IMG/VR virus record: IMGVR_UViG_3300020577_011595
Coordinates: 1-64,000 of that record
Reading direction: 5' to 3' (one strand)
Length of the DNA: 64,000 nucleotides
From: a virus
Lineage: Duplodnaviria; Caudoviricetes
Each line of letters begins with the position of its first letter. Within the stretch, counting starts at the first letter, position 1. A program made the translations under genes and the position numbers. Under the pieces are notes generated by a model. That model was given only the letters and a program-made list of their open reading frames with translations, searched no databases and was not told where the DNA came from. This document shows positions 45,117-64,000 of this stretch, piece after piece.

Positions 45117-46532
45117 TCAGACGCCCAGCGAACCCGCCGCGCGACCGATGTTCTTCACCACGACGTTCTTGGTCGGGGTGTAGCACTTGACGGCGCCGTA
45201 GATGACCTGCGTCCAGCGGATCGACGTGTCGACCGCCGCGAGGGGGATGCGGGTCATCGGGAGGAGCTGCGACCACGAGAAGCTGCGGCTGTTCTGCATG
45301 AGCACGAAGCCCTTGCTGGTGCCGGGGATGTCCTCGTTGACGTCGGTGATGACCTGCGTGGCGCCCGAGCGGGCCACGCGCGTCATCAGCTTCGCCGTGC
45401 TCGCCGCACCGCCGAGCGTCGAGCGGAACACCTCGTAGAACGTGGTGTCGGGGCCCGCGTCGGAGACCGTGAAGGTCACGGCGTCGCCCGCCGCAACGGC
45501 CACGCTGGCCGAGGTCACGGCCGCCGAGAGACCGCTCTTGTTGCCCGCCACCACCTTGTAGATGTAGGTGCCGGCGTCCGCCGTGCCGAACTGCGAGCTG
45601 GCGCTCGCACCGGCCGCCGGAGCGACCGTGATCGTCGGGGTGCCGGGGCGCTTGTCCGCGCGTCCGAGCGCAGCCGAGCGAGCCGCCTGGCCGGGCGTGA
45701 TGAACACGTGGTCGTGCAGGTTGATCTTGCCGTGCTGGCCCTGGAACGCGGTGATCGTCGTGCCGAGGGTGCCGGGCGCGGGGGCGTACGCGAACCGCTG
45801 GCGGTCGTACACCTGCTTCGCGAGGTCGGCGTAGGGGCCGGTCCCGAAGTAGGCGTCGGTGGCCTGCCCGTAGTTGTCGCGGATGGTGAGCAGCATGTCG
45901 TTGAGGGCGTCCTCGGTGAGCACGCCGCCACGCAGGTCGATCACGTTGTCCGGCGCGCCGTCCTCGACGAGCTTGTAGAGGCCGTCCCACTGCTCGGGGA
46001 TGAGCGTGGAGTCGCCGAAGAACAGGGCGTTCTCGAGGTTCCGCAGCAGCTCCATGGTCTTGTTCATCGTCTCGAGGGCGATGACGTTGCCGTGCGCCGC
46101 GCGGATCGTGTTCGCGACGTGCGTCACGCGACCCGTGATGCCCAGGAACTTGATCAGCACCGTGACGCGCTCGAAGGTGCTGTCCTGCTCGTCGGGCAGG
46201 CCGCCCTCGGAGAAGAACCCCTGGTTGAACGAGCGAGCGCCGCCCTCGCCGTAGGAGACGAGGCGGTTGAACTCCTCGACCGTGTTGCTCGCGGGCACCT
46301 TCGGGATGGACTTGAAGAGCTTGATCTCGTCCATCTCGTAGGTGAGGTTCTTGAGCGTCGCCTCCAGCGACTCGGTGCGGAGAGGGAAGCCCTCGCCCGC
46401 GGCCGTGCCGGGGTTGTTGACGTCGCTGCCTGCGCTGAGCGCCTTGTGCAGGTCGGCGATCTCCGTGGCCGAGGCTCCGATGCCTCCCGCGGCGCTCCCG
46501 TAGTCCTGCATCGAAACGAAGGGTCCGAGCAT
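45117..46532 (-). CDS. Major capsid protein (Twort/SPO1-like)
   Basis: ATG at 46532 with an AAAGGA RBS; LHKALSAG..LRTESLEATLKNLTY, VEEFNR, LP.A..D....W. Confidence 0.92.
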   Translation of the reverse strand: MLGPFVSMQDYGSAAGGIGASATEIADLHKALSAGSDVNNPGTAAGEGFPLRTESLEATLKNLTYEMDEIKLFKSIPKVPASNTVEEFNRLVSYGEGGARSFNQGFFSEGGLPDEQDSTFERVTVLIKFLGITGRVTHVANTIRAAHGNVIALETMNKTMELLRNLENALFFGDSTLIPEQWDGLYKLVEDGAPDNVIDLRGGVLTEDALNDMLLTIRDNYGQATDAYFGTGPYADLAKQVYDRQRFAYAPAPGTLGTTITAFQGQHGKINLHDHVFITPGQAARSAALGRADKRPGTPTITVAPAAGASASSQFGTADAGTYIYKVVAGNKSGLSAAVTSASVAVAAGDAVTFTVSDAGPDTTFYEVFRSTLGGAASTAKLMTRVARSGATQVITDVNEDIPGTSKGFVLMQNSRSFSWSQLLPMTRIPLAAVDTSIRWTQVIYGAVKCYTPTKNVVVKNIGRAAGSLGV

Positions 46533-46600
46533 GGTGCGTATCCTTTCTGGTGCCTGTTCCGTTCCGTGAGGATCGGGGTGAGTGCGTGGTGACGACGTGA

Positions 46601-47596
46601 TCAGCGGTAGGAGAGGGCGGTCTGCGCCTCCCCCGGGTTGGTCGCGAGGAAGCGGTGGACGGCGTCGAGCGCCGAGGCCGGGAGGTGGCCGCCCGACTCG
46701 TAGATCGAGGCGATGTCGGTCGCGCGCTGGCCCCCGATGGTGCCCCACCGCTCGCCCTTCTCGAGGCCCATGTAGCTGAGCGTGCTCACCACCTGGGACT
46801 TCGTGAGGGTCGGCGCCTGCCCGCGACCCGGACCGCCGGCCTCGCCGGGCATACCCTTGTGGAGCGGGCGCGCCGTGCCGGTCAGGCCGCGCTGCGGGCG
46901 GGGCGTGCTCTCCAGCATGCCCAGGCGCGCGCCCAGGGCCGCGATCACGGCCTGCTGGGACTTCACGAGCTGGCCGGTCGCGACCGCCGCGACCGTGATC
47001 TTGTGGAGCAGCGCGTCCGTCCGGTCGCTCCGCGCCTCCATCGACTTCGCGAGGCCGTCGAGCAGCTCGGCGTGCGCGGTCGCGAAGTCGGCCATGAAGG
47101 GCGAGACGTCCATCGCGTCGGCGATCGACTGCTCGCCGCGCTCGTTCACGTAGTCGCGCAGGGCGTCGAGGGACTTGCCCATCTTGCCCTTGCCGCCCGT
47201 GGGGCGGACGCGCGGGTTGGGGGCCACGCCGCCCTCCGTCGAGGCCGGCTTGCCGAACTTGCCGGCCAGCTCGGGGACCTCTCCGTCGCCCTCGCCCTCG
47301 TCGCCGTCCGGCTCCTCCTCGTCCTCGCTCTGCTTGCCCCGCATGAACGCGGCGATGTCGCCCGCCCCGAAGCCGGCGTCGATGAGGCTCTGCGTCATCT
47401 TGCCGATCATCATCGAGTCGAGCCCGCCGACGTCGCCCTGCTCGGGGTAGCCGCCCGAGGTCGAGCCCCGCTCGTCGGTGTGCCCGCCGGTCTCGACGGC
47501 CACGCCGCCGAGCGCCTTCGAGAGGTCCGCAGCGCGCACCAGCTCGTTGAGGGTCTCGTCGATCCCCTCGATCGTCGTCTCGTTGTCCTTCGCCAT
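46601..47596 (-). CDS. Scaffold-like protein
   Basis: Acidic/helical protein between protease and capsid; several xxKS/KA motifs. Confidence 0.7.
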   Translation of the reverse strand: MAKDNETTIEGIDETLNELVRAADLSKALGGVAVETGGHTDERGSTSGGYPEQGDVGGLDSMMIGKMTQSLIDAGFGAGDIAAFMRGKQSEDEEEPDGDEGEGDGEVPELAGKFGKPASTEGGVAPNPRVRPTGGKGKMGKSLDALRDYVNERGEQSIADAMDVSPFMADFATAHAELLDGLAKSMEARSDRTDALLHKITVAAVATGQLVKSQQAVIAALGARLGMLESTPRPQRGLTGTARPLHKGMPGEAGGPGRGQAPTLTKSQVVSTLSYMGLEKGERWGTIGGQRATDIASIYESGGHLPASALDAVHRFLATNPGEAQTALSYR

Positions 47597-47607
47597 GGAT
47601 CTCTCCT

Positions 47608-48357
47608 TCACTCCGGCGGCGCCGGATGGTGCTTGCATGCGTAGCTGGCGATGCGCTCGGCCATCGCCTTCGTGAGCTGGGGGTTGCGAGACATCAGGAA
47701 GAGCACCGCTTCGCTCTTCGTGAGCTTCTTGCGCTTCTTCTTGGGCTGCTCCGGCTCCGGGCGAGCCGGGGCAAGCCCCTCGAGCGCCTGCACCCGCATC
47801 GGCCCGGCGTCGCCGGGCGAGCCGCCCGCCGTGGAGCCGGACCCGACCGAGAGGCTCTTTGCCAGGGTCGAGAGGTTCGTGCGGTCGTTCACCGGGCAGC
47901 GGGTGATCGCGACCTCCCGAACGATGGCCTTGCGAACGCGCCGGGGGTCCGCGGGGTCGCGATCGATGATGGAGCCCTCGACCGAGAAGCCGAGGCGACG
48001 GGGCGCGCCCGACCGCTCCAGAGCGGTCGCCAGGTTCCAGATTTCGTCCGCGGGAGGGTGGCCCTTGAGCAGGTAGCCCTCGACGTACCAGCCGCGGCGA
48101 CCGTCGGGGAGCGTGCGCAGCTCCGCGCGCTCGGGGTAGCCGACCGCCTTGCCCGTCTCCTTGAGGTGGTTGTCGTTGAAGAACCCGCTCTTGAGGAAGG
48201 GTGAGAAGTCGAGCCCTTCCTGCACGAGCACCTCGTGCTGCTTGTCGAGGTGGTCGGTCGACACGATGCCCGCGATGCGCCGCTCGCGACCGGGCTCCGC
48301 CGAGGCCTTCTCGAAGGTCTCGAACTCGAACTCGAAGTTGAACGGGGTGCCGTGCAT
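47608..48357 (-). CDS. Prohead maturation protease
   Basis: IAGIVSTDHLDKQHE, FFNDNH, YVEGYL, LGFSVEG, VAITRCPVN. Confidence 0.9.
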   Translation of the reverse strand: MHGTPFNFEFEFETFEKASAEPGRERRIAGIVSTDHLDKQHEVLVQEGLDFSPFLKSGFFNDNHLKETGKAVGYPERAELRTLPDGRRGWYVEGYLLKGHPPADEIWNLATALERSGAPRRLGFSVEGSIIDRDPADPRRVRKAIVREVAITRCPVNDRTNLSTLAKSLSVGSGSTAGGSPGDAGPMRVQALEGLAPARPEPEQPKKKRKKLTKSEAVLFLMSRNPQLTKAMAERIASYACKHHPAPPE

Positions 48358-48366
48358 GGTGGGTCC

Positions 48367-48408
48367 CGAAACGAAGAAAGGCGGCGCCCCTTTCGGGGAA
48401 CCGCCTCT
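48367..48408 (-). terminator. GAAA-loop hairpin plus T tract upstream of the protease
   Basis: aggcgg-tt-cccc-GAAA-gggg-cg-ccgcct followed by TTCTTCGTTTC on the minus strand. Confidence 0.55.
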
Positions 48409-48466
48409 CTGCCGCGCACGCGCGGCTAGGCCACGAGGGGGATATGACCCGAGCTGGCTCCGTTCG

Positions 48467-48679
48467 TCAAGCGCGAGGCACAACGGGTCGGGGCGCCTCC
48501 GCCTTCCGGGGCTCCTGGGAAGGCACGAGCGTGCCGATGATCACGCCCCGCTTGCAGGTCGGACAGTTGACCTCGGCCTCCCCCGACTTGTGGAGCACGA
48601 GCATGCTCGTCGAGGCCTTGCGCTTGCCGCCCGCGCCGTCGCGAAACAAGGGCTGGCCGCAGTGAGGGCACGCGCTCAT
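48467..48679 (-). CDS. Small zinc-ribbon protein (Com-like)
   Basis: ATGA-coupled; CPHCG...VNCPTCK, 70 aa. Confidence 0.7.
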   Translation of the reverse strand: MSACPHCGQPLFRDGAGGKRKASTSMLVLHKSGEAEVNCPTCKRGVIIGTLVPSQEPRKAEAPRPVVPRA

Positions 48680-50595
48680 CGGAGGCTCTTCTTCGCGGGC
48701 TCGCTCGTGCGGCCCGCGCGGAGCCACGCCTTGAACCGCTGGATGGGCCACGAGCGCACCGTTCCGAGCAGACGGGGTCCCTTCGCGTCGTAGTTGCGGA
48801 GGTAGGCCGCGCGCGCCTCGGCGATCGTGCGGAACCCGAGCATGACCTTGTGCTCGTCGAACCCGCCGCCCTCGAGCTTCTTCTGGTTCACGATGAACAC
48901 GCGCTCCGAGTCGCGATGCGGCCCGACGAAGACGTCGATGTCCTCGCCGTCGGCGCCCTTGGTGCCCTCGATGAACCCGTAGGGGTGCACCATCGTGGTC
49001 TCACCGTGCTCGCGCTTCTGCGGGTCGTACCAGCGGCGGACCGATCCCTTCGGGTTCTCGATCGCGACGTCGAGGCCCTGCACCACGAGGCGGTCCTTCA
49101 CGGGGAGGTTCTTGATCAGCGACGCCACGCCGATCGGTCTGAAGATCAGGGACTTCTTCGTCTCCCACGGGGGCAGCTCGAACCCGAGCTTCTCCTCCGC
49201 GTTCGTCTCCCACTCCGCCAGATCGCCTCGGATGGTCGGAGACTTCGACGTGCGAAGCGCCGTCTCACGCATCTTCACGAGCTTCGCCTTCGCCTCCTCG
49301 ATCTTCCCTTCCTTGGCGAGCCGCTGCGCGACGGAGAACCCGCCATCCCAGAAGAGCTGGTCGCTGCTCCGCTTCTTCTCCTCGCCGGGCATCTTGACGC
49401 CGTGCTGCTGGTAGAGCGCGCGCAGCCGCATGATGTCCTCACGGCGCTCGTCGAAGATCCCCTCGCTCTTCGCGGGGGCCGCCTTGCCGATGTCGTAGAG
49501 CACCACCTTGCCGGCCTTGTCGAGGCCCACCTGCACGTCGTCGTTGAGCGCGTAGCCCTTCTCGTGCATCGCGAGCAGCGCCGTGCGCGCGTCATCGAGC
49601 TGCGCCTGCGTGAGCTTGCTCGGGATCTCGACGTAGGGCTTGATCTGGAAGCCCTTGTCGCCGTGGTGGACGTACTCGCTCCGCAGCATGCCGGGCACGC
49701 CCGCGCTCGCGAGCTTGTTGCCGACCTCGACCTGCTTGCGCAGCATCTCGTTCGCGTCGCGCGGAGATCGGTGCCCCGGGTTGAACGGCTGGTAGGGGAC
49801 GGTCGTCGAGACCTTCACGACCTTGTCGCCCACGCGGAACGCGATCCCGTCGTCGCCCTTGCCGAGCAGCTTCGCCTTGCCGGAGATCACGGCGTCGATG
49901 TCCGGCCGACCCGACGCTGGAAGGTCGACGCGGCCCTCGAGATCGTTCTGGAGGTGTCGGAACGACGCCGCGGGCATCTTGGTCCCGTAGCCGCGCTCCA
50001 GCCCTGCCGCGGATGACGCGATGCGCACCGAGCCGTCTGCGTCCTGCGCAGCGTGCACCTCGAGCGGGTGGGCCTTCTCGCTGCCTGCGATGGCGGGGTG
50101 GACCTCGATCACGTGCTTCCCCTCGATCTTCTGCGGCGGGGGAGGCGGCGCCTGGCGCGCGTCGAAGAGGCTCGCCTGCTGCGGCGCCCGGGGCGCCTGC
50201 TTGGGGGTGTGCGAGAGCAGGTCGAGCTGCTGCGGCTTCTTCGCGGGCTCGGGCCCCTTGGGCGCTTCGGGCGCCCGCCCGAAGCCCAGGGCGCTGGCGG
50301 TGTGGGGGTCGAGCTTGGAGGGGTCGAGCTTGACCTTGCCGGCCCGGTTGCAGGTCCGGCAAGGGGCGCTGCTCACGACCTCTCCGCCCCCCATGATCAT
50401 CTGCCGGCTGATCACGTGCCGGAGCCCATGGCACACCGAGCACGAGCCGCCCTGAGCCCCCGCCCCCTGCCTCTTGGCCGACGGGTCCTCGTACGGGATC
50501 GTGTGGGCGGCGTCCGCCCACTTCCCGCCGCGCGGACCGTAGAACAGCCCCTTCCGCAGTCGCCCCGCGGTGTGCACGCGCACCGGGCGCCTCAC
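48676..50595 (-). CDS. Polyvalent protein: GPRGG peptide + kinase-like domain + InPase domain
   Basis: GTG in a GTGA overlap; LLGKGDDG..VVKV...HEKGYALND...VVLYDIG; IENPKGSVR...YGFIEGTKGADGEDIDVFVGP...FDEHKVMLGF. Confidence 0.8.
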   Translation of the reverse strand: MRRPVRVHTAGRLRKGLFYGPRGGKWADAAHTIPYEDPSAKRQGAGAQGGSCSVCHGLRHVISRQMIMGGGEVVSSAPCRTCNRAGKVKLDPSKLDPHTASALGFGRAPEAPKGPEPAKKPQQLDLLSHTPKQAPRAPQQASLFDARQAPPPPPQKIEGKHVIEVHPAIAGSEKAHPLEVHAAQDADGSVRIASSAAGLERGYGTKMPAASFRHLQNDLEGRVDLPASGRPDIDAVISGKAKLLGKGDDGIAFRVGDKVVKVSTTVPYQPFNPGHRSPRDANEMLRKQVEVGNKLASAGVPGMLRSEYVHHGDKGFQIKPYVEIPSKLTQAQLDDARTALLAMHEKGYALNDDVQVGLDKAGKVVLYDIGKAAPAKSEGIFDERREDIMRLRALYQQHGVKMPGEEKKRSSDQLFWDGGFSVAQRLAKEGKIEEAKAKLVKMRETALRTSKSPTIRGDLAEWETNAEEKLGFELPPWETKKSLIFRPIGVASLIKNLPVKDRLVVQGLDVAIENPKGSVRRWYDPQKREHGETTMVHPYGFIEGTKGADGEDIDVFVGPHRDSERVFIVNQKKLEGGGFDEHKVMLGFRTIAEARAAYLRNYDAKGPRLLGTVRSWPIQRFKAWLRAGRTSEPAKKSLR

Positions 50596-50792
50596 GTGCG
50601 GGTCCTGTCGTGGAGCTGCGTCAGCGCCCGGTTGAGGCTCTCCTGCGTCGGCGCCGTCGTTGGCTTCTGCGCCTTCGGAGCGGCCGCGGGGCAGGGCTCG
50701 ACCGCGGCTTGCGACGACGCGGCGCAAGCGCACTGCCGGCATGCCTCGGCGCGATAGTCCCATCGGTGCGTCCCGTGCGCGATCCTCATCAT
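50592..50792 (-). CDS. Small Cys-containing protein (66 aa)
   Basis: Coupled overlaps at both ends; HRW..ACRQC. Confidence 0.55.
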   Translation of the reverse strand: MMRIAHGTHRWDYRAEACRQCACAASSQAAVEPCPAAAPKAQKPTTAPTQESLNRALTQLHDRTRT

Positions 50793-52537: not shown

Positions 52538-52549
52538 GGCTCCGCCAGG

Positions 52550-53344
52550 CTAGCAGCCCGTCGGAGGATCGGTCACGAGGTCGCCGAGCACCGCGTAGGT
52601 GACGACGACGTCGTTCTCGTCGTCGAGGTTCTCCAGCGTGAGCGCCGAGCAGCTCAGGGACGCGAGCAGGAACGCGCGCACGTCCTCGGCGCCGTCCGAG
52701 CCGCTCGTGTCCGCGGGGACGAGCAGCGTGATCGGGGTCTGCCCCGCACCCGCGTCGGTGCCGTTCGTCGTGCCCGTCGAGAGGCCCAGCGCGGTGAGCA
52801 CGCCCGCGTCGGTGTCCGTGTCGATCACGATGCTGGCCGCCAGCCCGGACGTCGGGCTCAGAAGCCGAAGCTGCGAGCCGCCGTTCGTTCGCGCGATCGT
52901 CGTGGGCACACCGCCCGCGCCCGCGATGCCTGCGAGCGCGGCTGCCGCGTTGATCCGGTTGATCACGGCCGCGAGCGACTGGTCCGCGGAGGTGAACGCC
53001 ACGGTGACCGCGGTCCCCGTGATCTCCAGCACCAGCTCCTCGCCGCCCACGAACCCGGTGGGGTACGAGCCGCCGACTCCCGTGACGATCGCCTGCGTCG
53101 CGCTCGTGCCGCCGGGCGTGAGCCGGATCGGGCCGGTGGCCTCGAAGTAGACGATGCGCGCCGCGGACACGTCGCCGAAGGGCACCGCGAAGTTGGTCTC
53201 CGAGGCCTCGAGCGTGATCGTCCCGCCCTCGGCGTGCTCCAGGGTGTCGAGGAGCTGCTGGAGCGCGCCCTCGAACACGGGCTTGCTCAGGTTGTTCTCG
53301 CGCCCGACCTCCAGGGTCAGGTCCACGTTCACGCGTACGCCCAT
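52550..53344 (-). CDS. Putative structural protein with Gly/Thr-rich insert
   Basis: ATG at 53344 with a GAGGAGG RBS; the insert resembles sheath/fibre insertion domains. Confidence 0.6.
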   Translation of the reverse strand: MGVRVNVDLTLEVGRENNLSKPVFEGALQQLLDTLEHAEGGTITLEASETNFAVPFGDVSAARIVYFEATGPIRLTPGGTSATQAIVTGVGGSYPTGFVGGEELVLEITGTAVTVAFTSADQSLAAVINRINAAAALAGIAGAGGVPTTIARTNGGSQLRLLSPTSGLAASIVIDTDTDAGVLTALGLSTGTTNGTDAGAGQTPITLLVPADTSGSDGAEDVRAFLLASLSCSALTLENLDDENDVVVTYAVLGDLVTDPPTGC

Positions 53345-53346
53345 CG

Positions 53347-55086: not shown

Positions 55087-55100
55087 CCGCGCTCCTTGGT

Positions 55101-56765: not shown

Positions 56766-56814
56766 CGGGAGATACTCCTCGGTGCGACTCTACCGCGAGA
56801 GTCGGGGCTCGTCA

Positions 56815-59800
56815 TCAGAACAGGGCGCGCTGGTTCGCGGGCGTCTTCTCGTCGGAGCGGCTCAGAGCTGCCGCGACCGTCTCGCGGAGCACCTCGCCCG
56901 GGCTCTTCGCCGGGCCGAACATGCTGCCCTGGCCCTCGGGATTCTGGCCTGCCCGGCGGACGTAGTCGCGCCAGACGGCGGCCTGCTGCTGCGGGCCCGG
57001 CTTGCGGACGAGCAGCTCGAGGAGCGCGCGGGCATTCTGGTTGTCGACGACGGGGTGCCTCCCGCCGAAGAGGTCGTCGAAGTAGTTGAACAGGCGGTCG
57101 AACGTCTTGGGCTCCATCTTCGGGTCGAGCGCGGGGATCGCCCCCGTCTCGACGCGGTGGTGCAGGTCGTTGTAGGCGGAGAGCGCGACGGCGAGGTCCC
57201 CGCCGACGTCGTAGCCCTTGCCGCCCGAGGTCTTGGCCTGGACCATGTAGGGCACCGCGGCCGCGATGTTCCCGACGATCTTCGGCCCCGTGTTCGAGAG
57301 GATGTCGGCGTCGCCGACGAGCCGGCCGACGAGGATGCGCTCGACGAGCACGCGCCCGTCCTCGTTGAGCAGCTTCGTGCCCTTCTTGAGGTACTGGTTC
57401 GCGTTGCGCTGGTCGATGATGCCTGCGCGCTGGAGCGCGTTCACGAACCGCTCCGAGCGGTTCGACGCGAGGAAGGCGGAGAGGGTCTCGTCCTCCTTCA
57501 TGTCGTTGCCGAGCGCGGCGAGGGACTGCTCGTCGAGCTTGCGGCCCATCGCGACCTGCATCGTTCGCGGGTCCATCGCCTGCGTGAAGCTTTCGTTGAG
57601 CTGGCGCACGAGGAGCTTCTGGCTCGCGGTCGAGGTGTCCTCGGGCTCGATGACGCGCACGAGCACGGGATGCTCGAGGGCGTCGACGTCCTCGGGGCGA
57701 AGCCCGAACTCGTGAGCGTGCTCGGCGAGGTACGCCTTCAGCGCGGCGCCCTTCTCCCCGTGGTGCACGTAGGCATGCTGCATCGACATCGTCCGGCTGT
57801 TGCCGCCGAGCGCGATGAGCTTGCCGTCCTGCTCGATCACGACGGGCGGGCCGTTCACGGCGTCGGGGTTGGTGTTCGCCACGAACGCGGGGTTCAGGCT
57901 CATCGCGTTGCGGAGCACCTTGCCCTTCTCGGCCTCGTCCCGATGGTAGGCACGCTCCTGCACGCCTTCGGGGTAGTCCTCGCGCTTCTTGAAGCCCTTG
58001 AGCGGGTCGTGCGAGGCGACGAGGTCGGAGGCGTTGGCGAGCTTGTAGCGCGCGCGGATGGCCTTGGGCTGGCCCCCGTCCCCCGCCACGTAGACCGCCG
58101 TCGAGCCGCCGTCGGTCTTCGGTGCGGGATGGGGAGCCGCAGCGGGGGCCGCTGCCATGGCGTTGCGGGCCTCGTCGGCGACCTTGTCCTTCAGCCCGGG
58201 GAACGCGCTCGTGAGCAGGTTGAGCTTCTGGATGGCGCTCGAGGCCAGCGCCTCGGCGAGCGCCCGCGCGCGGTCGTTGGTCGACCCGCTCTGCGCCTTC
58301 GCGAGCGCCTCGGAGAGCTTCGCCAGCTCGGCCTCCGCCCGCTTCGCGATCTCCGCGACGCGGTCCGCGAAGTCGTCGGTCTCCGCATCCGCCCCGCCCC
58401 GCAGCTCGACGACGGTGCCGACGTGACCGACCGTGACGCGCGCGCCCGCGGCGAGGTTCTCCGCGCCGCGAACGATCTCCGAGAAGCGCGTCGCGCTCGT
58501 GCGCTGCGTGAGCACGGACCCGATCGCGGCTGCCCGTGCCTCGGGCTCCCACCCGCGGCGCTCGAGGGCCGTGGCGAGGATGCTCTTCGCGCGGAAGGGG
58601 TTGACGCCCGCGCGGCCGAAGGCCTGCTGGAGCTTCGCGTAGACTTCGGGGACCCGCTTCTGGAGCTGCGCGAACCGCTCTTCGTCGGAGCCCTCCAGCT
58701 CGCCGAGCAGCGCCTTGGGGACGTGCCGGAGGACCGCGTTGACCGAGGCCTCGGCGCGCTTCTCCGCCCAATCGTGATAGCGGGTGCCGTACCCGCGGAC
58801 GAGCAGGTTGGCCCACTCGTCGGGCTTGATCGCGCGGACGCGGCCGCCCATCTCGACGTGGACGGTCCCGTCCTTCTCGACCTCGTGGACCTTCGCGATG
58901 CCCTGCCCGTGCCCGAGCGAGACCTCCTCGCCGGCCTGGGCGTCGCGCGCGATGGCGCTCTCGGCGTAGTAGTAGCGCCACGGGCGCTTCGGGTTCCCGG
59001 TGGGCACGCGCCGGACGTACTTGTGGGACGCCGCGCCTGCGCCGGCCTTGTGCAACGCGTGGTAGAGCGCCGCGAGCGCGGCCTGGCTCTTCTCGGTCTC
59101 CTCGTCCTCGGCCTCGTCGTCCTCCTCGGGCTCCGGCTCGGCGCCCGGAGGCAACTGCACGGGCACGACAGGGAGCGGGCTGGCTCGACGCGCCCCCGGC
59201 GTTCCGGCGGGGTCGGCGACTCCAGGGGACGGACGCGGGCCCATCGGCGGGGCGGGCGCCAGGGCATCCTCGCGCGCATCGGGAGACCGCGGGACGCGGC
59301 CTGCGTCGGCCTGCGCACGCGGGGGGTTGCCCTGAGGCATCCCAGGGCCGCCGGCTGCGAGCCGCGGGCGCTGGTGGTCCGCGACCACCAGCGGCGCGCG
59401 CTGGGCGATCTGCGGGCCGCCGACCATCGCCATCGTCCGCACCGCCGGGACGTAGAGGAGCGTGGGGTCGAGGCGCACGTTGCCCGTTCCGTGGAACCCG
59501 TGCGCCCGGGTCGAGGCGTCTGCGTCGGCCTGCCTGCGGTTCACCTCGGCCTCTTCCTCCCGCTGCCGGTGGTCCGCGTCGCGGGGCTGGAAGTAGATGT
59601 CCTGATAGTCGGGGATGGATGCGCGCTGGCCGGGCGCCGCGCCATACGCGGGGCCGATCGACGGCTGCGGCTGGGGCTGCCCGCCGATCATCGCCTTGAT
59701 CATGGTGGGGGTGATCGACCGCTCCATCGGGGCCTCCGCCTTCGGCTTGCGCGGGCGAGCCTGCGTCCGGGCTGCCGCGCGCTCGGGGCTGATCTCGACC

Positions 59801-61824
59801 TTCTCGGGCTGCTCGGGCTCGCCGAGCTGCTGCCGTAGCACGGCGGACCCACGGCGCCCCTTCTGCCTGCCCGCCCACCGCTCGGCGGCGTCGGACGCGG
59901 CCCGCTCGGTCGCGTCCCTGCGTTGCTTCGCCTGCGAGAGGCTCTGGTCGTACGCCTCGCGGTCCGCCTGCCCGCGCGACGCCCGCGAGACGCGCTCCTC
60001 GGCCTCCCCAGCGCCCTGCCTGACCTCGGCGAGGGCCCGGTCGGTGTCGGACCGCGCAGCCTCGTCGAGCCGCCCCAGCGCCGCGTGCGCGGCTTCGACG
60101 TGCTGCTGCGCCTGGGGGTCGTGCCCGAACATGCGGTTGACGTCCTCGGGACTGCCCATCCCGAAGACGTCGAGCACACCGTCGTCGTCGCCGCCCTGGG
60201 GAGGCATCTGGTAGCCCCCGCCCCCGAGCGCGGCGGGGCCCACAGGGCCCTGGGGCGCGGGCTCCGCCTCTCGGGGCGCTGTCGGCTGCGCCGGGGCGCC
60301 AGGAGCCTCCGGGGCGCCGGGAGAGGGCGTCTGCCCCAGGGTGCGCGCGCTCGCCGTGACCGAGGCGAGCCCCTGCTTGCCGGAAGCGAGAGCGTCGGAC
60401 GCGTAGGCCTCGAGCTGCTTGTTCTTCTTTTCGGCGGCCTCGAGCAGCGACCCGAGATCGGGCCCGAGGACCGACGCGGGGGCCGCGCTGCTGTTGAACG
60501 CGCGCCCGAACGCCTTGAGGTTCTCGACGATCTTCGAGTCGCCCTCGGCGGTCTTCGCGCCGGCCTGCCGCGCGCGGAGCCCGACGACGATGTGGTTCAG
60601 CGCCTCTTCGAGCTGGCCCGCGAGCTGGGGGTCGTGCTGGCGGATCGCCGCGACGACCTGCATGCCCTGCTGCCCGATCTCGTTCGCGCCGGGCAGGGGC
60701 TTGGGCTGCGCGCCGGCCGGCTGGGCCGGCGCCGGGGGCTTCTGCCCGGGCGGCTTGGGGGCCGCGCCCTGCGGCTGTCCCGACCCCTCGTGGTAGGGGA
60801 TCGTGTGCTCGGGGTTGGCCCACCGACCGCCCTGCGGGCCCGTGAACAACTGCGCCTTGGCCAGGCCCTCGCGCACCGCCGCTTCCCGCTGGGCAGATAG
60901 TTTCTTCACGCGCTTCTCCAGGTGGTCGACCTCCGAGCGTAGGTCGTGCGCCGCTCGCTCGTCGACGCCGTTCTCGGCGAGCCGCTTCTGCCGCCACGCG
61001 AACAGCGCGTCCTTGCGCGCCTCTTCGCGGCGGTACCTCTCGGGGGTCATCTCGCTCGCGGGTTGCTGCCAGGCGTGCACGTCGCCCATCGCCACGCGCC
61101 GCATCCCGCGATCGAGCGCGCTCCGCTCCCAGCTCTCGGTGAGCGACGCGGAGTCGACGTCTACGAGGTCGGGCACCGTGAGGCGGTCGACGACGGCCTT
61201 GCCCTTCGTGTTCTTGGCCTCGAGCACCTCGAGCGCCGCGCGCTTCTGGCCCAGCTCGTGTGCCGCCTTGCCGAGAGCCTTCGCGGCGCGCTCCAGGGTG
61301 CCGAGCCTGGCAGCCTGCTCCGGGTCCTGCTTCTTCGCGCAGCCCGTGCCCATGATCACGTGACGCCCGTTCGTCAGCTCGACGGCGGCGTGCACCTCGT
61401 GCTCTCTCGCGCACCGCGCGCACACGGCAAGCACGCCGCTACCCGGGATCGGGCGGCTGTACTCGACCCCGAGGTGCCCCTCGACCAGCTCGCGCTCGCG
61501 CGTGTCGCGGATGCCGACGATCCGCTTGATCTTCACGTGCTTCTCGGACTCGGAGAGCAGCGCCGGCCGCCCGTGCTCGGCCGGGTTCCAGTGGATCGTG
61601 TGCTGCGGGTCCGCCCACAGCCCACCTTTCGGACCGATGAACGGGCCGCCGCTCATCTTCGCCATCATCGGCACCACGAGCCGGCGCTCGAGGTCGGCGT
61701 AGTAGTCGGGCCGTTCCTGAAGGTGGTTCGCGACCTTGCCGGCCTTCTCGCGCGCATCGCCGTGGCCCTTCTCGCGCTCGTAGGCGATGGCCGCTGCGAT
61801 CTCGGTCGGCGTGGGTCGGTGCAT
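56815..61824 (-). CDS. Giant polyvalent protein (~1669 aa): DUF5661-like N-terminus, two GPxGG peptides, HKYVRR motif, ddrB-like ParB domain
   Basis: ATG at 61824 just after the upstream stop; ANHLQERPDYYADL; SDLVASHDP...VQERAY...NGPPVV...GGNSRTM...PVLVR. Confidence 0.8.
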   Translation of the reverse strand: MHRPTPTEIAAAIAYEREKGHGDAREKAGKVANHLQERPDYYADLERRLVVPMMAKMSGGPFIGPKGGLWADPQHTIHWNPAEHGRPALLSESEKHVKIKRIVGIRDTRERELVEGHLGVEYSRPIPGSGVLAVCARCAREHEVHAAVELTNGRHVIMGTGCAKKQDPEQAARLGTLERAAKALGKAAHELGQKRAALEVLEAKNTKGKAVVDRLTVPDLVDVDSASLTESWERSALDRGMRRVAMGDVHAWQQPASEMTPERYRREEARKDALFAWRQKRLAENGVDERAAHDLRSEVDHLEKRVKKLSAQREAAVREGLAKAQLFTGPQGGRWANPEHTIPYHEGSGQPQGAAPKPPGQKPPAPAQPAGAQPKPLPGANEIGQQGMQVVAAIRQHDPQLAGQLEEALNHIVVGLRARQAGAKTAEGDSKIVENLKAFGRAFNSSAAPASVLGPDLGSLLEAAEKKNKQLEAYASDALASGKQGLASVTASARTLGQTPSPGAPEAPGAPAQPTAPREAEPAPQGPVGPAALGGGGYQMPPQGGDDDGVLDVFGMGSPEDVNRMFGHDPQAQQHVEAAHAALGRLDEAARSDTDRALAEVRQGAGEAEERVSRASRGQADREAYDQSLSQAKQRRDATERAASDAAERWAGRQKGRRGSAVLRQQLGEPEQPEKVEISPERAAARTQARPRKPKAEAPMERSITPTMIKAMIGGQPQPQPSIGPAYGAAPGQRASIPDYQDIYFQPRDADHRQREEEAEVNRRQADADASTRAHGFHGTGNVRLDPTLLYVPAVRTMAMVGGPQIAQRAPLVVADHQRPRLAAGGPGMPQGNPPRAQADAGRVPRSPDAREDALAPAPPMGPRPSPGVADPAGTPGARRASPLPVVPVQLPPGAEPEPEEDDEAEDEETEKSQAALAALYHALHKAGAGAASHKYVRRVPTGNPKRPWRYYYAESAIARDAQAGEEVSLGHGQGIAKVHEVEKDGTVHVEMGGRVRAIKPDEWANLLVRGYGTRYHDWAEKRAEASVNAVLRHVPKALLGELEGSDEERFAQLQKRVPEVYAKLQQAFGRAGVNPFRAKSILATALERRGWEPEARAAAIGSVLTQRTSATRFSEIVRGAENLAAGARVTVGHVGTVVELRGGADAETDDFADRVAEIAKRAEAELAKLSEALAKAQSGSTNDRARALAEALASSAIQKLNLLTSAFPGLKDKVADEARNAMAAAPAAAPHPAPKTDGGSTAVYVAGDGGQPKAIRARYKLANASDLVASHDPLKGFKKREDYPEGVQERAYHRDEAEKGKVLRNAMSLNPAFVANTNPDAVNGPPVVIEQDGKLIALGGNSRTMSMQHAYVHHGEKGAALKAYLAEHAHEFGLRPEDVDALEHPVLVRVIEPEDTSTASQKLLVRQLNESFTQAMDPRTMQVAMGRKLDEQSLAALGNDMKEDETLSAFLASNRSERFVNALQRAGIIDQRNANQYLKKGTKLLNEDGRVLVERILVGRLVGDADILSNTGPKIVGNIAAAVPYMVQAKTSGGKGYDVGGDLAVALSAYNDLHHRVETGAIPALDPKMEPKTFDRLFNYFDDLFGGRHPVVDNQNARALLELLVRKPGPQQQAAVWRDYVRRAGQNPEGQGSMFGPAKSPGEVLRETVAAALSRSDEKTPANQRALF

Positions 61825-61829
61825 GCGGG

Positions 61830-64000
61830 TCAGGCTCGGGGGATCGTCAGGCGGTTGCCGACGAGGTGCTGGTAGCGCGGGTCGACGAGGGGCCGGGAGA
61901 GCAGGTTGCGGAGGGCCTTGTGGAGCAGCTCGCTCTTGCCGAACGCCGCGAAGATGGCGTCGAAGTGCGGCGTCATCGCGTCGACCTCCGCGTCGCTCGG
62001 CCAGAGCTTGCTGACTGCGCTGCCCGCCATCGCGATGCCTGTGAGGTAGGTGTTCTCGCGGCCCTTCGCGTGCAGCTTGCGCTGCACGTACCTCTCGAAC
62101 GTGCGGGCGAACACCTCGCACGTCGAACGCCAGTAGTCGGCCTTGCCCGCCGACATCCGCTTGTCGCGTACGTACTGGCGAGTCTCGGCGGCGAGCCTCT
62201 CACGGAACGCGCCCATCGCGTCCGACGTCATCAGCGCGCGCATGGCGCGGAACGTCGGATCGTCGTCGGCCTTCGTGTCCCGCACCAGGACGTCCTCCGA
62301 GACGAAGCGCGCTTCCTTCCGGCCTGCGTAGGTGCGCTGCGTGGCCTCGCCCGCCGCCTCGTAGATGAGGTTGTCGAACATGTGCCCCCACTCGTGCGCG
62401 AGCGCGCCCGCTCCCGAGTCGCGGGTCAGGTTGATCACACGCGCGGTGGGTTCGTAGTGCGCGGAGGCCGTGCCCTTGCCTCGCGCGCCGATCGCCATCG
62501 CGAGGCGCCCGTTGAACGAGGCCATGCCCGCCGGCAGCCCGAGCACGTCGGTGAGGTCCGCGAACGAGTCGACGACGCTCTTGAGGTGGTGCTCGCGTTC
62601 GCCGTCGGTGACGCTCTTGCCCCACTGCACGCCGCGCATCCCGTACTTCCCGCCCTTGCTCTTGTCGAGCAGGTCGAGGCCCTGCTTGACGCTGCGATAC
62701 TCGGACGGCGGGCCCTTCCGCACCATCTTCGACGTGTTGTAGACCTTGGACAGATCCCACTCGTCCTCGGCCTTCGACTGCTTCGCGCCGAAGGCCTCGT
62801 TCATCGACTTGCCCTCGAGCATGCGCATCACGTGGTTGGCCATCGCCGCGTTGCGCTCTTCCGCCGTGGGGTACTTCGCGTTCAGGCGGCGCGCGAAGTC
62901 GTTGGCCTGCGCGAGCGGGGAGAGCGACCCGCGGCCGGCGATGGCGTTGTGGAAGTCGCGGATCGCTTCGGTAGCTGCCGAGGTGGGTCCGTACTCCTCA
63001 CTCACCCGCTGATGGAGCACCGCCACGTCGCTCAAGAACGCGCGCACGGCACCCAGCGGGTTGTCCGCGTGGTCTTTGCTCTCGACGAATTTCGAGAGGA
63101 GGCCGCGCGCCTCGCTCCACGCGGCGTAGTAGGCCTCGCGCTGCTTCCGCAGATGCTCCTCGGCCGTGACGGCCTCGCCAGAGGGAGCACTGCGCGCGAG
63201 CAGCTTGACCCCGTCGTACTTCGTGGGCGCCGACCACGCGCCCTCCTCGCCCGTGCGATGGCGCGGGATCGTGGGGCGCTGCGGGAACTTCCGCAGCATG
63301 AGGTGGCCGAGCAGGACCTTGAGCGTCTGCGGGCCGTTGCCCTCCGCCGTGATCTTCTGCGCCACCGAGACGAACTCGACGGGCTCCTGGCGCTCCAGGA
63401 AGTCGCGAGTGAAGAGACGGTCCGCGTCGGCCGACGCAGAGGCATCGCGCGCGTTCTTCCACACGAGCGCCTTGTGCCGGGCGCTGCCGCCCACGTCCTC
63501 GCCGCGCTGCTCGACCGCGGACGAGCGATCGTTGACGAACTCCTCCGCCTCCTTCGCCTTCTTCGCAGTGGCCTCTGCGTCACCCCGGGGAGTGCCCTCG
63601 GGGGCTCTCGGGGCCACCGGGATCACGAGGCGCTCGGGCGGCTTGGCCGGGGCCTCGGCGGGCGGCGCCCACGGTGTCTCACGCTTCCCCGCGCCTTCGA
63701 TCGATCGCACGGGCTCGATCGTGCGCTTCGCTCCCGTCGTCCACAGCTCGGCCGTGCCGTCTGCGCGGATGATCAGCTCGCGAAGGTTGCGCGAGCGGCC
63801 TTCGATGGGGGCGAGATACACGCGCCGCCCGTACTTGCCGCCCGAGACCTCCGTGTCGTCGATCTCGGCGCGGAACTTCATCCCGTTGACCGTGACCGTC
63901 TGGCCCTTCGTGAAGCGCATCATGGGCGTCTGGGCCTTGACCCGATCACGGTCGGCCTTCGCCTTCTCAGCCTCCACGCGGAGTCGCTCGCGGATGTCGT
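61830..64000 (-). CDS. Partial large polyvalent protein with HExxH peptidase and LPD1-like domain
   Basis: Frame is open to base 64000; RGVQWG..SAHYEP..INLT...LAHEWGH...YW..EVFARTFE.YV..KL..ENTYL...WPS. Confidence 0.8.
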   Translation of the reverse strand, partial: DIRERLRVEAEKAKADRDRVKAQTPMMRFTKGQTVTVNGMKFRAEIDDTEVSGGKYGRRVYLAPIEGRSRNLRELIIRADGTAELWTTGAKRTIEPVRSIEGAGKRETPWAPPAEAPAKPPERLVIPVAPRAPEGTPRGDAEATAKKAKEAEEFVNDRSSAVEQRGEDVGGSARHKALVWKNARDASASADADRLFTRDFLERQEPVEFVSVAQKITAEGNGPQTLKVLLGHLMLRKFPQRPTIPRHRTGEEGAWSAPTKYDGVKLLARSAPSGEAVTAEEHLRKQREAYYAAWSEARGLLSKFVESKDHADNPLGAVRAFLSDVAVLHQRVSEEYGPTSAATEAIRDFHNAIAGRGSLSPLAQANDFARRLNAKYPTAEERNAAMANHVMRMLEGKSMNEAFGAKQSKAEDEWDLSKVYNTSKMVRKGPPSEYRSVKQGLDLLDKSKGGKYGMRGVQWGKSVTDGEREHHLKSVVDSFADLTDVLGLPAGMASFNGRLAMAIGARGKGTASAHYEPTARVINLTRDSGAGALAHEWGHMFDNLIYEAAGEATQRTYAGRKEARFVSEDVLVRDTKADDDPTFRAMRALMTSDAMGAFRERLAAETRQYVRDKRMSAGKADYWRSTCEVFARTFERYVQRKLHAKGRENTYLTGIAMAGSAVSKLWPSDAEVDAMTPHFDAIFAAFGKSELLHKALRNLLSRPLVDPRYQHLVGNRLTIPRA

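What the first reader, a model, noticed from the sequence alone, without database searches (positions are those of the whole stretch)
46445..64000. Candidate system: capsid-packaged effector polyproteins cut by the prohead protease at xxK-[A/S/G]
Seen: an [L/M/F]-x-K-[A/S/G] motif ends the capsid N-terminal segment (LHK30-ALSAG). It recurs in the scaffold (LSKA, MGKS, LAKS, LHKG, LTKS), protease (FEKA, LAKS, LTKS), portal (LVKA, LEKS), MuF (LRKS x2, LRKA) and the 554-aa protein (MAKG, MWKG, FQKS, LAKG, LVKS). It also occurs in the giant protein (LAKA, MIKA, LHKA), the kinase protein (LRKG) and the LPD1-like protein (FGKS, LHKA). Several copies fall at domain junctions, such as the MuF/peptidase boundary. 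Established: Twort-like phages (K, A511) lose the capsid propeptide at a Lys-Ser bond, and T4 gp21 trims internal proteins. Inference: about 15 kb of enzymes around the portal are packaged as polyproteins, released inside the head and injected as an effector cocktail.
Basis: partly seen in the sequence, partly recalled or inferred. Interest (0 to 1): 0.88.

Follow-up and report, generated by a model that had tools for sequence, protein, structure and literature searches.

The report
Head-protease cut sites mark phage cargo
An uncultured phage with an SPO1/Twort-type head carries the probable cut site of its head-maturation protease (Leu-x-Lys|Ala/Ser/Gly) in its capsid, scaffold, protease and portal proteins and also, fused to a widespread peptide tag that Pfam and the searched papers do not describe, at the module borders of giant multi-enzyme proteins; these are therefore probably loaded into the head, cut apart and injected, though no cleavage has been shown.

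Summary
[L/M/F]-x-K-[A/S/G] occurs 40 times in the head cluster against 10.1 expected from composition. The rest of the window has 9 against 11.9, and permuted or Arg/Glu control motifs sit near 1x. In a scan of all 8000 a-x-b-c patterns, L.KS and L.KA rank first and second in the head clusters of five relatives. Scaffold sites are kept in 96% of orthologs, against 33% for other lysines. Capsid K30|A31 aligns with the mature N-terminus of the staphylococcal phage phi812 capsid. SPO1 shows the same pattern.

Bulk enrichment in the giant proteins is weak: 1.7x against 1.4x for control motifs. Seven specific sites, however, are composite junctions, L-x-K|[A/G/S] followed by one of two conserved tags. 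About 90% of tag-1 copies found without reference to the site carry it. Homology blocks among 120 relatives start at these junctions. All 21 tagged junctions in six genomes lie between terminase and capsid. The tag occurs in 779 protein clusters and matches no Pfam family or searched paper.

Cleavage, packaging and injection remain inferred, by analogy with T4, phiKZ/SPN3US and P1. This scan noted the same concept earlier in other genomes.

The parts
45117..46532 (-). Major capsid protein (471 aa), SPO1/Twort type. Predicted 30-residue propeptide removed at K30|A31 (K codon 46443-46445).
   Evidence: phrog_752 E 1.7e-89. 32-35% identity to Herelleviridae capsids. K30|A31 aligns with the first residue of the 439-aa phi812 chain 9row and with L-N-K|A-L-E-A-G of SPO1 gp6.1. 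Site kept in 40/42 relatives.
46601..47611 (-). Scaffold protein (336 aa) with 7 sites: K32, K146, K189, K217, K252, K271, K285. Cutting at all of them gives pieces of 14-114 aa.
   Evidence: 7 observed vs 0.70 expected. Each site kept in 31-38 of 38 orthologs at about 37% overall identity. Motif lysines kept 96% vs 33% for other lysines. Pooled over six genomes 48 vs 4.9.
47608..48357 (-). Prohead protease (249 aa). Catalytic domain about residues 15-154; invariant H64 and S125; conserved probable self-cut sites K17 and K167 (L-A-K|S-L).
   Evidence: phrog_1028 E 2.9e-48. Alignment of 15 orthologs. AF2 model with a disordered stretch 155-207 that holds K167. Best fold match T4 gp21, then herpesvirus proteases, all weak. 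6 sites vs 0.56 expected.
48467..48679 (-). Conserved 70-aa zinc-ribbon protein with L-H-K|S at K31.
   Evidence: Present in 33 related loci; site kept in 32/33. The site lies between the two Cys pairs, so it may be structural rather than a cut site.
48676..50595 (-). p639 cargo protein (start codon uncertain: 50595, 50733 or 50850). N-terminal leader, junction K15 (50551-50553), tag 1 (about 50476-50550), Cys-rich stretch, kinase-like region that was not verified, C-terminal InPase domain.
   Evidence: PF18823 InPase E 6e-38. Junction and tag seen.
50789..52537 (-). p582: MuF-like head protein fused to a C-terminal HExxH zincin-type peptidase. Conserved sites K55 and K406 lie in linkers.
   Evidence: Consensus C-x-x-C ... 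H-P-W-C-G-C and H-E-I-G-H in 14 orthologs, K406 at least 90% conserved. AF2 low-confidence segments 52-88 and 393-417 contain K55, K393 and K406. Weak zincin fold matches. No Pfam hit.
53347..55086 (-). Portal protein (579 aa). Sites K13 (N-terminal, not conserved in close relatives) and K562 (C-terminal, kept 9/9).
   Evidence: PF04860 E 1.3e-21, phrog_12. Conservation. SPO1 portal has N-terminal sites K9 and K33.
55101..56765 (-). p554 cargo protein. Pro/Gly-rich N-terminal half with sites K45, K63, K290. Conserved C-terminal module starts exactly at L-A-K326|G-L-Y-A-F (K codon 55788-55790).
   Evidence: In all orthologs homology begins at residue 323-324, preceded there by L-K-K|G-L-Y-A-F. 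In relatives the module is the C-terminal end of 990-1210-aa proteins that carry tag junctions, or a separate 272-aa protein with a 60-aa leader.
56815..61824 (-). Giant polyvalent protein (1669 aa). Junctions: K56 (M-A-K|M, then tag 1 at 61579-61656), K323 (60856-60858, tag 1 at 60781-60855), K926 (59047-59049, tag 2 at about 58945-59046). A conserved C-terminal module, residues 927-1669, holds a DdrB-like ParB domain.
   Evidence: PF18763 E 6e-13. About 32% identity over some 150 residues to P1 DdrB. 120 homologs with varied N-terminal effector domains. Junctions. K323 kept 10/11 and K926 kept 23/37.
61830..64000 (-). C-terminal 722 residues of the 1828-aa LPD1 polyvalent protein (gene 61830-67316 of the genome). 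In-window junction-like site K1552 (62661-62663), followed by a G-G-K-Y motif. Tag-2 junctions K182 and K349 lie beyond the window. K1794 and K1800 lie at or just past the C-terminal end of the LPD1 domain match (residues 1725-1795).
   Evidence: PF18796 LPD1 E 8e-16; NCBIfam CLCA_X residues 1557-1794. Junctions.

Best explanation
The window holds the head module of an uncultured phage (G000, an 82.5-kb record; complete relatives are 100-109 kb). Its capsid, portal and protease are of the SPO1/Twort (Herelleviridae) type.

Its assemblin-fold prohead serine protease cuts after Lys in [L/M/F]-x-K|[A/S/G]. In the core head proteins this would:
- remove a 30-residue capsid propeptide;
- cut the scaffold into pieces of 14-114 residues;
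- release the protease from its own N-terminal leader and C-terminal tail;
- trim the portal.

The same site closes short N-terminal leaders on most accessory head proteins. In the giant polyvalent proteins it is part of a composite junction: a hydrophobic or helical P-side, L-x-K|[A/G/S], then a roughly 22-residue tag. Tag 1 is G-P-[YF]-[IV]-G-P-x-G-G-x-W-A-D-x-x-H-T-I-P-W. Tag 2 is R-G-G-K-Y-x-x-R-x-P ... W-x-Y-x-Y.

Cutting at the junctions would split the 1669-aa and 1828-aa proteins into about four modules each. Every module would start with a small N-terminal residue (Ala, Gly or Ser) followed by the tag.

Shown here: the motif's excess, specificity, conservation and homology to a known capsid cut; the junction/tag architecture; its restriction to the terminase-capsid cluster. 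Inferred: that the protease cuts the junctions, that the proteins are packaged, and that the pieces are injected. What the tag does is unknown. It could be a docking site for the protease, a retention signal in the head, or an ejection address.
For: Motif excess:
- 40 vs 10.1 in the head cluster; 9 vs 11.9 in the rest of the window; control motifs about 1x.
- Six-genome pool: scaffold 48/4.9, protease 30/3.6, portal 16/5.2, accessory proteins of 300-899 aa 42/13.2, rest 130/137.
- L.KS and L.KA are the top 2 of 8000 patterns in the relatives' head clusters.

Conservation and homology:
- Sites are conserved while their flanks vary.
- Capsid K30|A31 aligns with the mature phi812 N-terminus (9row 439 aa vs 5lii 463 aa) and with the SPO1 gp6.1 L-N-K|A site.
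- SPO1 scaffold, protease and portal carry the motif; its tail proteins carry none.
- The protease is phrog_1028, has invariant His/Ser, and its best fold match is T4 gp21.

Junctions:
- 78/89 tag-1 and 24/26 tag-2 copies in the giant family follow a site within 14 aa, against 6.4% of random positions.
- 83/92 tag-1 copies found in IMG/VR by a site-blind DNA pattern follow a site.
- 293/316 do so in 140 further cluster representatives.
- 40.5% of homology-block starts lie within 15 aa of a junction, against 3.8% at random.
- 21 tagged junctions lie inside the terminase-capsid cluster and 0 outside.
- 44/68 head-cluster proteins have a site in their first 70 residues, against 20/305 elsewhere.
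- Conserved sites of p582 and the protease lie in low-confidence linkers.
- Two database proteins begin directly at the P1' position of the tag.

Precedents:
- A 2811-aa LPD1-bearing polyvalent protein was detected in phi24B virions (preprint).
- SPN3US gp245 cuts nine head proteins (PMC10052503).
Against: There is no proteomic, biochemical or structural evidence of cleavage or packaging for this phage or any close relative. No cultured relative exists in the phage collection.

Bulk enrichment in the giants is only 1.67-1.69x, and reversed or Glu control motifs reach 1.43-1.46x there. Four giant proteins of relatives show no excess.

L-x-K sits at a fixed spacing from the tag, so it could simply be the first part of a binding motif.

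An alternative processing enzyme, the HExxH peptidase fused to MuF, is encoded in the same cluster. Iyer et al. 2017 proposed such peptidases as the processors of polyvalent proteins.

Some motif matches lie in structured regions and are probably not cut: protease K56 and K98, capsid K74, and the zinc-ribbon K31.

The fold matches for the protease and for p582 are weak, with E above 0.001.
Confidence: 0.6

Rival explanations
1. Only the core head proteins (capsid, scaffold, protease, portal) are substrates. In the giant proteins L-x-K is the uncleaved first part of a docking or retention tag. Alternatively the junctions are cut by a different enzyme, such as the HExxH peptidase fused to the MuF-like protein p582, as Iyer et al. 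proposed for polyvalent proteins.
For: Bulk enrichment in the giants barely exceeds that of control motifs. The spacing from K to the tag is fixed at 6-7 residues, as expected for one continuous motif. An HExxH peptidase is conserved in the cluster. N4 virion RNA polymerase and several plasmid polyvalent proteins are transferred uncut (PMC5512222).
Against: The triad at the junctions has the same P3, P1 and P1' preferences as the conserved capsid, scaffold and protease sites. The P1' residue stays small. Proteins exist that begin exactly at P1'. In relatives the same module occurs as a separate protein with its own leader ending in the site. SPO1 shows the same site pattern in its head module, and no MuF-peptidase was seen in the region examined.
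Confidence: 0.25
2. The giant proteins are not capsid cargo. They are late-expressed cytoplasmic or lysis-stage enzymes that merely sit next to the head genes, and the shared motif serves another purpose.
For: No virion data exist. Gene neighbourhood alone is weak evidence.
Against: The domains present (DdrB-like ParB, LPD1, InPase) are those of phage-type polyvalent proteins encoded beside virion genes. P1 DdrB is a head protein. A polyvalent protein with LPD1 was found in phi24B virions. Tagged junctions occur only between terminase and capsid in six genomes.
Confidence: 0.08
3. The motif excess is a compositional or post-hoc artefact, arising from Lys-rich helical proteins and a motif chosen after looking at the data.
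For: Head-cluster proteins have twice the lysine content of the rest, 4.8% vs 2.4%.
Against: Expectations were computed per protein from composition, and shuffles never exceeded 21 against 40 observed. Permuted motifs are about 1x. An unbiased scan of 8000 patterns in five other genomes ranks L.KS and L.KA first, p 1e-22 and 2e-20. Positional conservation is strong.
Confidence: 0.02

Closest known systems
T4 gp21 prohead protease with internal proteins IPI-III and Alt (capsid-targeting sequence)
   Same: One prohead protease of the assemblin fold trims the capsid, core/scaffold and portal-vertex proteins, and also removes short N-terminal leaders from injected cargo proteins at a three-residue motif.
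   Different: T4 cuts after Glu (L/I-x-E), whereas here the cut is after Lys. T4 cargo are single small proteins whose targeting leader is discarded. Here the site also recurs inside giant multi-module proteins, and a conserved tag stays on the product.
phiKZ gp175 / SPN3US gp245 processing of head and ejection proteins
   Same: Many head proteins, ejected ones included, are cut at a consensus motif. Propeptides are cut at several sites and the protease cuts itself (PMC10052503).
   Different: Those are jumbo phages with an A/S/G-x-E motif and mostly long N-terminal propeptides. No module-by-module cutting of polyvalent proteins and no retained tag has been reported for them.
Phage P1 Dar system (DarA, DarB, DdrB, Pro protease)
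   Same: Anti-restriction cargo proteins are packed in the head and co-ejected. DarA loses an N-terminal fragment to the prohead protease. DdrB is processed and shares its ParB-type domain with the giant protein here.
   Different: P1 cuts its capsid protein after Glu120. DarB uses a 30-residue N-terminal targeting signal. No repeated junction tags are known.
Polyvalent proteins of phages and conjugative elements (Iyer, Burroughs, Anand, de Souza, Aravind 2017)
   Same: Giant proteins stringing LPD1, DdrB-ParB, InPase and other effector domains, encoded beside portal, MuF and terminase, with highly variable architectures. They are predicted to be delivered with the DNA.
   Different: That work proposed processing by embedded zincin-like peptidases and did not describe junction motifs. 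Here the junctions carry the prohead protease's site plus a conserved tag that no Pfam family covers.
Herelleviridae capsid maturation (phi812/K, A511, SPO1)
   Same: The capsid, portal and protease are homologous. The short N-terminal propeptide is removed at a Lys|Ser/Ala bond at the aligned position.
   Different: The host is probably not a Firmicute (70% GC). The genome is smaller. The head module is expanded by about 17 kb of cargo genes that SPO1 lacks between portal and capsid.

Membership tests
Prohead (capsid maturation) serine protease, assemblin / T4 gp21 / HK97 gp4 fold | Sequence membership in a head-maturation protease family | tested here: met
   phrog_1028 E 2.9e-48 and phrog_38466 E 1.4e-16. 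No Pfam or PDB sequence hit.
Prohead (capsid maturation) serine protease, assemblin / T4 gp21 / HK97 gp4 fold | Assemblin-like fold | tested here: inconclusive
   AF2 model with mean pLDDT 65. The top Foldseek hit is T4 gp21 5jbl (E 6.4e-3, prob 0.92), followed by KSHV, HCMV and EBV proteases. All are above E 0.001.
Prohead (capsid maturation) serine protease, assemblin / T4 gp21 / HK97 gp4 fold | Conserved catalytic His and Ser | tested here: met
   H64 (in N-D-N-H) and S125 (in G-F-S-V-E-G) are invariant in 15 orthologs. Their assignment as catalytic residues is inferred.
Prohead (capsid maturation) serine protease, assemblin / T4 gp21 / HK97 gp4 fold | Gene lies between portal and scaffold/capsid; the enzyme cuts the capsid propeptide | tested here: met
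   The gene order is met. The capsid site is homologous to the phi812 cut. Actual cleavage cannot be tested with these tools.
Polyvalent proteins (Iyer et al. 2017) | Large polypeptide carrying signature domains (LPD, DdrB-ParB, InPase and others) | tested here: met
   PF18763 in the 1669-aa protein, PF18796 in the 1828-aa protein, PF18823 in p639. Only one Pfam domain is recognised per protein. Further modules are inferred from the junctions.
Polyvalent proteins (Iyer et al. 2017) | Mosaic, rapidly shuffled domain architectures among homologs | tested here: met
   120 homologs share the ParB module joined to InPase, PAPS reductase, Zeta/AAA kinases, Hint, topoisomerase IB, helicase, methylase or RelA/SpoT domains. 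Homology blocks start at junctions.
Polyvalent proteins (Iyer et al. 2017) | Encoded beside virion genes and delivered with the DNA | tested here: inconclusive
   The position between terminase and portal/capsid is met in six genomes. Delivery cannot be tested here.
T4-type capsid-targeted, protease-trimmed cargo | Short N-terminal leader that ends in the prohead protease's site | tested here: met
   A site lies within the first 70 residues in 44/68 head-cluster proteins vs 20/305 others. 40 tag copies lie within 30 residues of a protein's start.
T4-type capsid-targeted, protease-trimmed cargo | Leader sufficient for packaging; cleavage by the protease | not testable with these tools
   This needs virion proteomics or reporter fusions. 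The complex predictor was unavailable.
MuF / SPP1 gp7 head protein (for p582) | Match to Phage_Mu_F (PF04233) | tested here: not met
   No Pfam, PHROG or NCBIfam hit. The only support is a motif-level resemblance (C-x-x-C ... H-P-W-C-G-C, compared from my own memory of the family) and the position downstream of the portal. It is therefore called 'MuF-like' only.

The most novel reading that the evidence does not exclude
The cut site plus tag is a portable junction cassette used across a large group of phages, seen in at least 779 protein clusters at 50% identity. It would let any enzyme module be spliced into a capsid-delivered polyprotein. The prohead protease would then free each module inside the head, and the retained N-terminal tag would serve as a common address for retention on the DNA or shell, or for ejection. 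On this reading polyvalent proteins are true viral polyproteins processed by the capsid protease, not by their own peptidases.
Probability: 0.4. Interest if true: 0.85.

Novelty: new variant of a known kind. Interest (0 to 1): 0.68.

Why it matters
How giant polyvalent proteins are loaded into the head and turned into working enzymes has been open since they were described in 2017. A junction rule that can be read from sequence (L-x-K|small residue, then a tag) would make this testable. It predicts exact fragment boundaries for hundreds of uncharacterised phage proteins. It gives a defined substrate for a Lys-specific prohead protease. It also suggests a natural cassette for loading foreign proteins into capsids, as has been done with the T4 and P1 targeting signals. 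In addition it links the specificity of a capsid protease to the evolution of counter-defence cargo.

Tried and rejected
- Near-identity DNA search of the head region against cultured phages found no match.
- Pfam, PHROG and NCBIfam gave nothing for the scaffold, p582, p554 and p264.
- PDB sequence search with the protease gave nothing.
- The ESM Atlas gave no usable hit for the two unknown giant-protein segments.
- A full MAFFT alignment of 84 giant homologs timed out. It was replaced by pairwise BLAST mapping.
- A covariation test failed. I looked for tag copies without an upstream Lys site, hoping to find phages whose capsid and scaffold sites had changed in step. The clearest exception (G006) still has L-x-K|A in its capsid and protease, and its tag does have a site, only further upstream. 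No natural specificity switch was found in this family.
- Literature search for the tag sequence returned no paper.
- Complex prediction (protease with junction peptide) was not available, so nothing was folded.
- Foldseek matches for p582 and the protease are weak, with E above 0.001, and are used only as consistent hints.

Full report
WHAT THE REGION IS

The window is 70% G+C, and nearly all genes lie on the minus strand. It is the first 64 kb of an 82.5-kb virus record.

In the direction of transcription the gene order is as follows:
- terminase large subunit (beyond the window);
- a 1828-aa protein with an LPD1 domain;
- a 1669-aa protein with a DdrB-like ParB domain;
- a 554-aa protein (p554);
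- the portal;
- a 264-aa protein (p264);
- a 582-aa protein (p582);
- a protein of 639-724 aa ending in an InPase domain (p639);
- a 70-aa zinc-ribbon protein;
- the prohead protease;
- the scaffold;
- the major capsid protein;
- tail genes.

The capsid and portal are 32-41% identical to those of SPO1, CP-51, Twort-like and other Herelleviridae. No cultured phage is close. IMG/VR holds 42 related contigs with capsids at 52-85% identity. Some are complete 100-109-kb genomes with terminal repeats.

THE OBSERVATION

I computed expectations for each protein from its own composition.
- [LMF]-x-K-[ASG] occurs 40 times in the head cluster against 10.1 expected. The largest count in 2000 shuffles was 21.
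- The rest of the window has 9 against 11.9.
- Reversed, shifted, Arg, Glu, Asp, Gln and Ile/Val variants lie between 0.2x and 1.7x.
- Adding Leu/Met at P2' gives 15 against 1.0.

| Protein class | Observed | Expected |
|---|---|---|
| Scaffold | 48 | 4.9 |
| Protease | 30 | 3.6 |
| Portal | 16 | 5.2 |
| Capsid | 10 | 4.0 |
| Accessory, 300-899 aa | 42 | 13.2 |
| Giants, 900 aa or more | 86 | 51.4 |
| Everything else | 130 | 137 |

I also scanned all 8000 a-x-b-c patterns without any prior. In the relatives' head clusters L.KS (52 vs 9.1) and L.KA (70 vs 18.2) are the two most enriched patterns. Neither appears in the top list for the rest of those genomes.

The scarcity in tail and replication proteins reflects their low lysine content. 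It is not avoidance.

WHY THE MOTIF IS THE PROTEASE'S SITE

1. Capsid homology. Capsid K30|A31 aligns with L-N-K|A-L-E-A-G of SPO1 gp6.1. It also aligns with the first residue of the 439-residue phi812 capsid chain (9row), which is 24 residues shorter than the full-length 463-residue chain (5lii). That Twort-like capsids lose about 23 residues at a Lys-Ser bond is my own recollection of Loessner and Scherer 1995; I did not check it here.
2. Conservation. The site is kept in 40/42 capsid orthologs. All seven scaffold sites are kept in 31-38 of 38 orthologs, although the scaffolds are only about 37% identical. Motif lysines are kept 96% of the time, against 33% for the other scaffold lysines.
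3. Self-cutting. The protease carries conserved sites at K17 and K167. K167 lies in a disordered stretch right after the catalytic domain. This is the usual pattern of self-release, and a scaffold cut into pieces of 14-114 residues is the usual route by which scaffold leaves the head.
4. SPO1. The same pattern holds there: scaffold 5 vs 0.66, protease 3 vs 0.87, portal K9 and K33, capsid K23, and none in seven tail or virion proteins.
5. Protease identity. The enzyme matches phrog_1028 (E 2.9e-48), has invariant His64 and Ser125, and its best, though weak, fold match is T4 gp21, followed by herpesvirus proteases.

THE GIANT PROTEINS

Bulk enrichment is 1.67x in six genomes and 1.69x in 120 homologs of the 1669-aa protein. 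Reversed and Glu control motifs reach 1.46x and 1.43x in the same set. Four giants of relatives show no excess. Counting alone therefore does not support cleavage of the giants.

The context of individual sites does. Seven sites in this genome are followed within a few residues by one of two conserved peptides:
- Tag 1: G-P-[YF]-[IV]-G-P-x-G-G-x-W-A-D-x-x-H-T-I-P-W. It follows p639 K15 and giant K56 and K323.
- Tag 2: R-G-G-K-Y-x-x-R-x-P ... W-x-Y-x-Y. It follows giant K926 and LPD1-protein K182 and K349. K1552 is followed by a related G-G-K-Y motif.

Evidence that site and tag form one junction element:
- In the giant family, 78 of 89 tag-1 and 24 of 26 tag-2 copies follow an [LMFIV]-x-K-[ASG] site within 14 residues, against 6.4% of random positions. 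The spacing is tight, 6-7 residues for tag 1.
- A DNA pattern that encodes only G-P-R-G-G-K-W-A-D found 92 distinct copies in IMG/VR. 83 of them carry the site. At least one apparent exception has it further upstream.
- A profile search of 1.84 billion cluster representatives found the element in 779 clusters (E at or below 0.001), with up to five copies per protein. 293 of 316 copies carry the site. 40 copies lie at protein N-termini behind leaders of 6-20 residues, and two proteins begin exactly at P1'. This profile included the site positions, so its 93% figure is biased upward. The DNA scan was not biased in this way.

Evidence that junctions are module borders:
- Among the 120 homologs, 40.5% of homology-block starts fall within 15 residues of a tagged junction, against 3.8% of random positions.
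- Where Pfam domains are recognised, they lie between junctions. For example, a GNAT domain at 547-618 lies between junctions at about 500 and 650 in P0018.
- The conserved C-terminal module of p554 starts exactly at L-A-K326|G. In relatives it is either the last module of 990-1210-aa proteins or a separate protein with its own leader ending in the site.
- In six genomes all 21 tagged junctions lie between terminase and capsid.

No Pfam family covers the tag, and no paper in the searched library contains it.

- p582 has a MuF-like zinc motif and a C-terminal H-E-I-G-H domain. Its fold matches to zincin peptidases are weak.
- In the p582 AF2 model (mean pLDDT 70) the conserved sites K55 and K406, together with K393, lie in low-confidence segments 52-88 and 393-417. 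The unconserved K298 lies at the end of a helix. The MuF/peptidase boundary claim therefore holds.
- In the protease model K17 and K167 lie at domain edges, while K56 and K98 lie in the folded core. Not every match to the motif is likely to be a cut site.

MECHANISM AND RIVALS

The best reading is a Lys-specific prohead protease that matures the shell, clears the scaffold and itself, removes leaders from cargo, and cuts polyvalent proteins at tagged junctions. Each module would then begin with Ala, Gly or Ser followed by the tag.

Packaging and injection rest on analogy:
- P1 DdrB shares its ParB-type domain with the giant protein and is a head protein.
- A polyvalent protein with LPD1 was found in phi24B virions.
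- SPN3US gp245 cuts nine head proteins.

The main rival is that the junction L-x-K is part of an uncut docking motif, or that the MuF-fused HExxH peptidase does the cutting, as Iyer et al. proposed. I could not separate these readings computationally. The complex predictor was unavailable, and no lineage with a switched specificity was found.

NOVELTY

Cargo trimmed by a prohead protease is known (T4, phiKZ/SPN3US, P1), and so are polyvalent proteins. Three things appear new:
- the Lys-type site in an SPO1-type head module that is expanded by about 17 kb of cargo genes;
- the repeated internal junctions;
- the widespread retained tags.

Earlier notes of this scan report the same concept in other genomes, including a Lys-type site with a small tag in a Leptospira LE1-like phage. 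First readers of this genome had also seen tags 1 and 2. Those notes are leads, not evidence.

Noticed in passing
window 47608-47860 (protease residues about 167-249); clearer in orthologs such as L013:5705-6439 and L017:8302-9039: Right after its L-A-K|S-L-S-A-G site, the protease's C-terminal part copies the start of the mature capsid protein (the A-L-S-A-G ... G-E-G-F-P-L-R-T-E-S-L-E stretch). Capsid residues 18-68 hit the protease ORFs of two relatives at about 50% identity. This could be how the protease is built into the procapsid.
   Followed up: partly
window 58945-59046; genome 66270-66770 (LPD1 protein K182 and K349, beyond the window): A second junction tag (R-G-G-K-Y-x-x-R-x-P ... 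W-x-Y-x-Y) follows L-x-K|[A/G] sites. 24 of 26 copies in the giant-protein family carry the site. No Pfam hit fell on the tag-2 junctions of the LPD1 protein (K182, K349).
   Followed up: partly
window 48467-48679: A 70-aa zinc-ribbon protein lies between the cargo genes and the protease in 33 related loci. It has a conserved L-H-K|S between its two Cys pairs. Function unknown.
   Followed up: no
window 52550-53344: The conserved 264-aa protein between portal and p582 has almost no lysine: 1 Lys here, 0-4 in orthologs. It has no motif copy, unlike its Lys-rich neighbours. One possibility is selection to resist a Lys-specific protease.
   Followed up: no
window 56400-56560 (p554 residues about 70-120): A long Pro/Gly/Gln/Met-rich low-complexity stretch lies between the N-terminal sites (K45, K63) and the rest of p554. 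It looks like a disordered spacer.
   Followed up: no
whole record (82,495 bases) compared with relatives G001, G004 and G008: Complete relatives with terminal repeats are 100-113 kb, so this record is probably incomplete. Cargo gene content differs greatly between relatives (giants of 1037-2268 aa with different modules), while the core head genes stay collinear.
   Followed up: partly
relatives L017:692-3661, L028:1-3630, L041:1-3192: A recurrent helix-like P-side element (K-K-S-x-D-A-I-x-G-L-E-x-L-x-K|) precedes several junctions in the relatives' cargo proteins. Other junctions have a hydrophobic strand ending in Pro (phi-phi-phi-P) 4-8 residues before the Lys.
   Followed up: no
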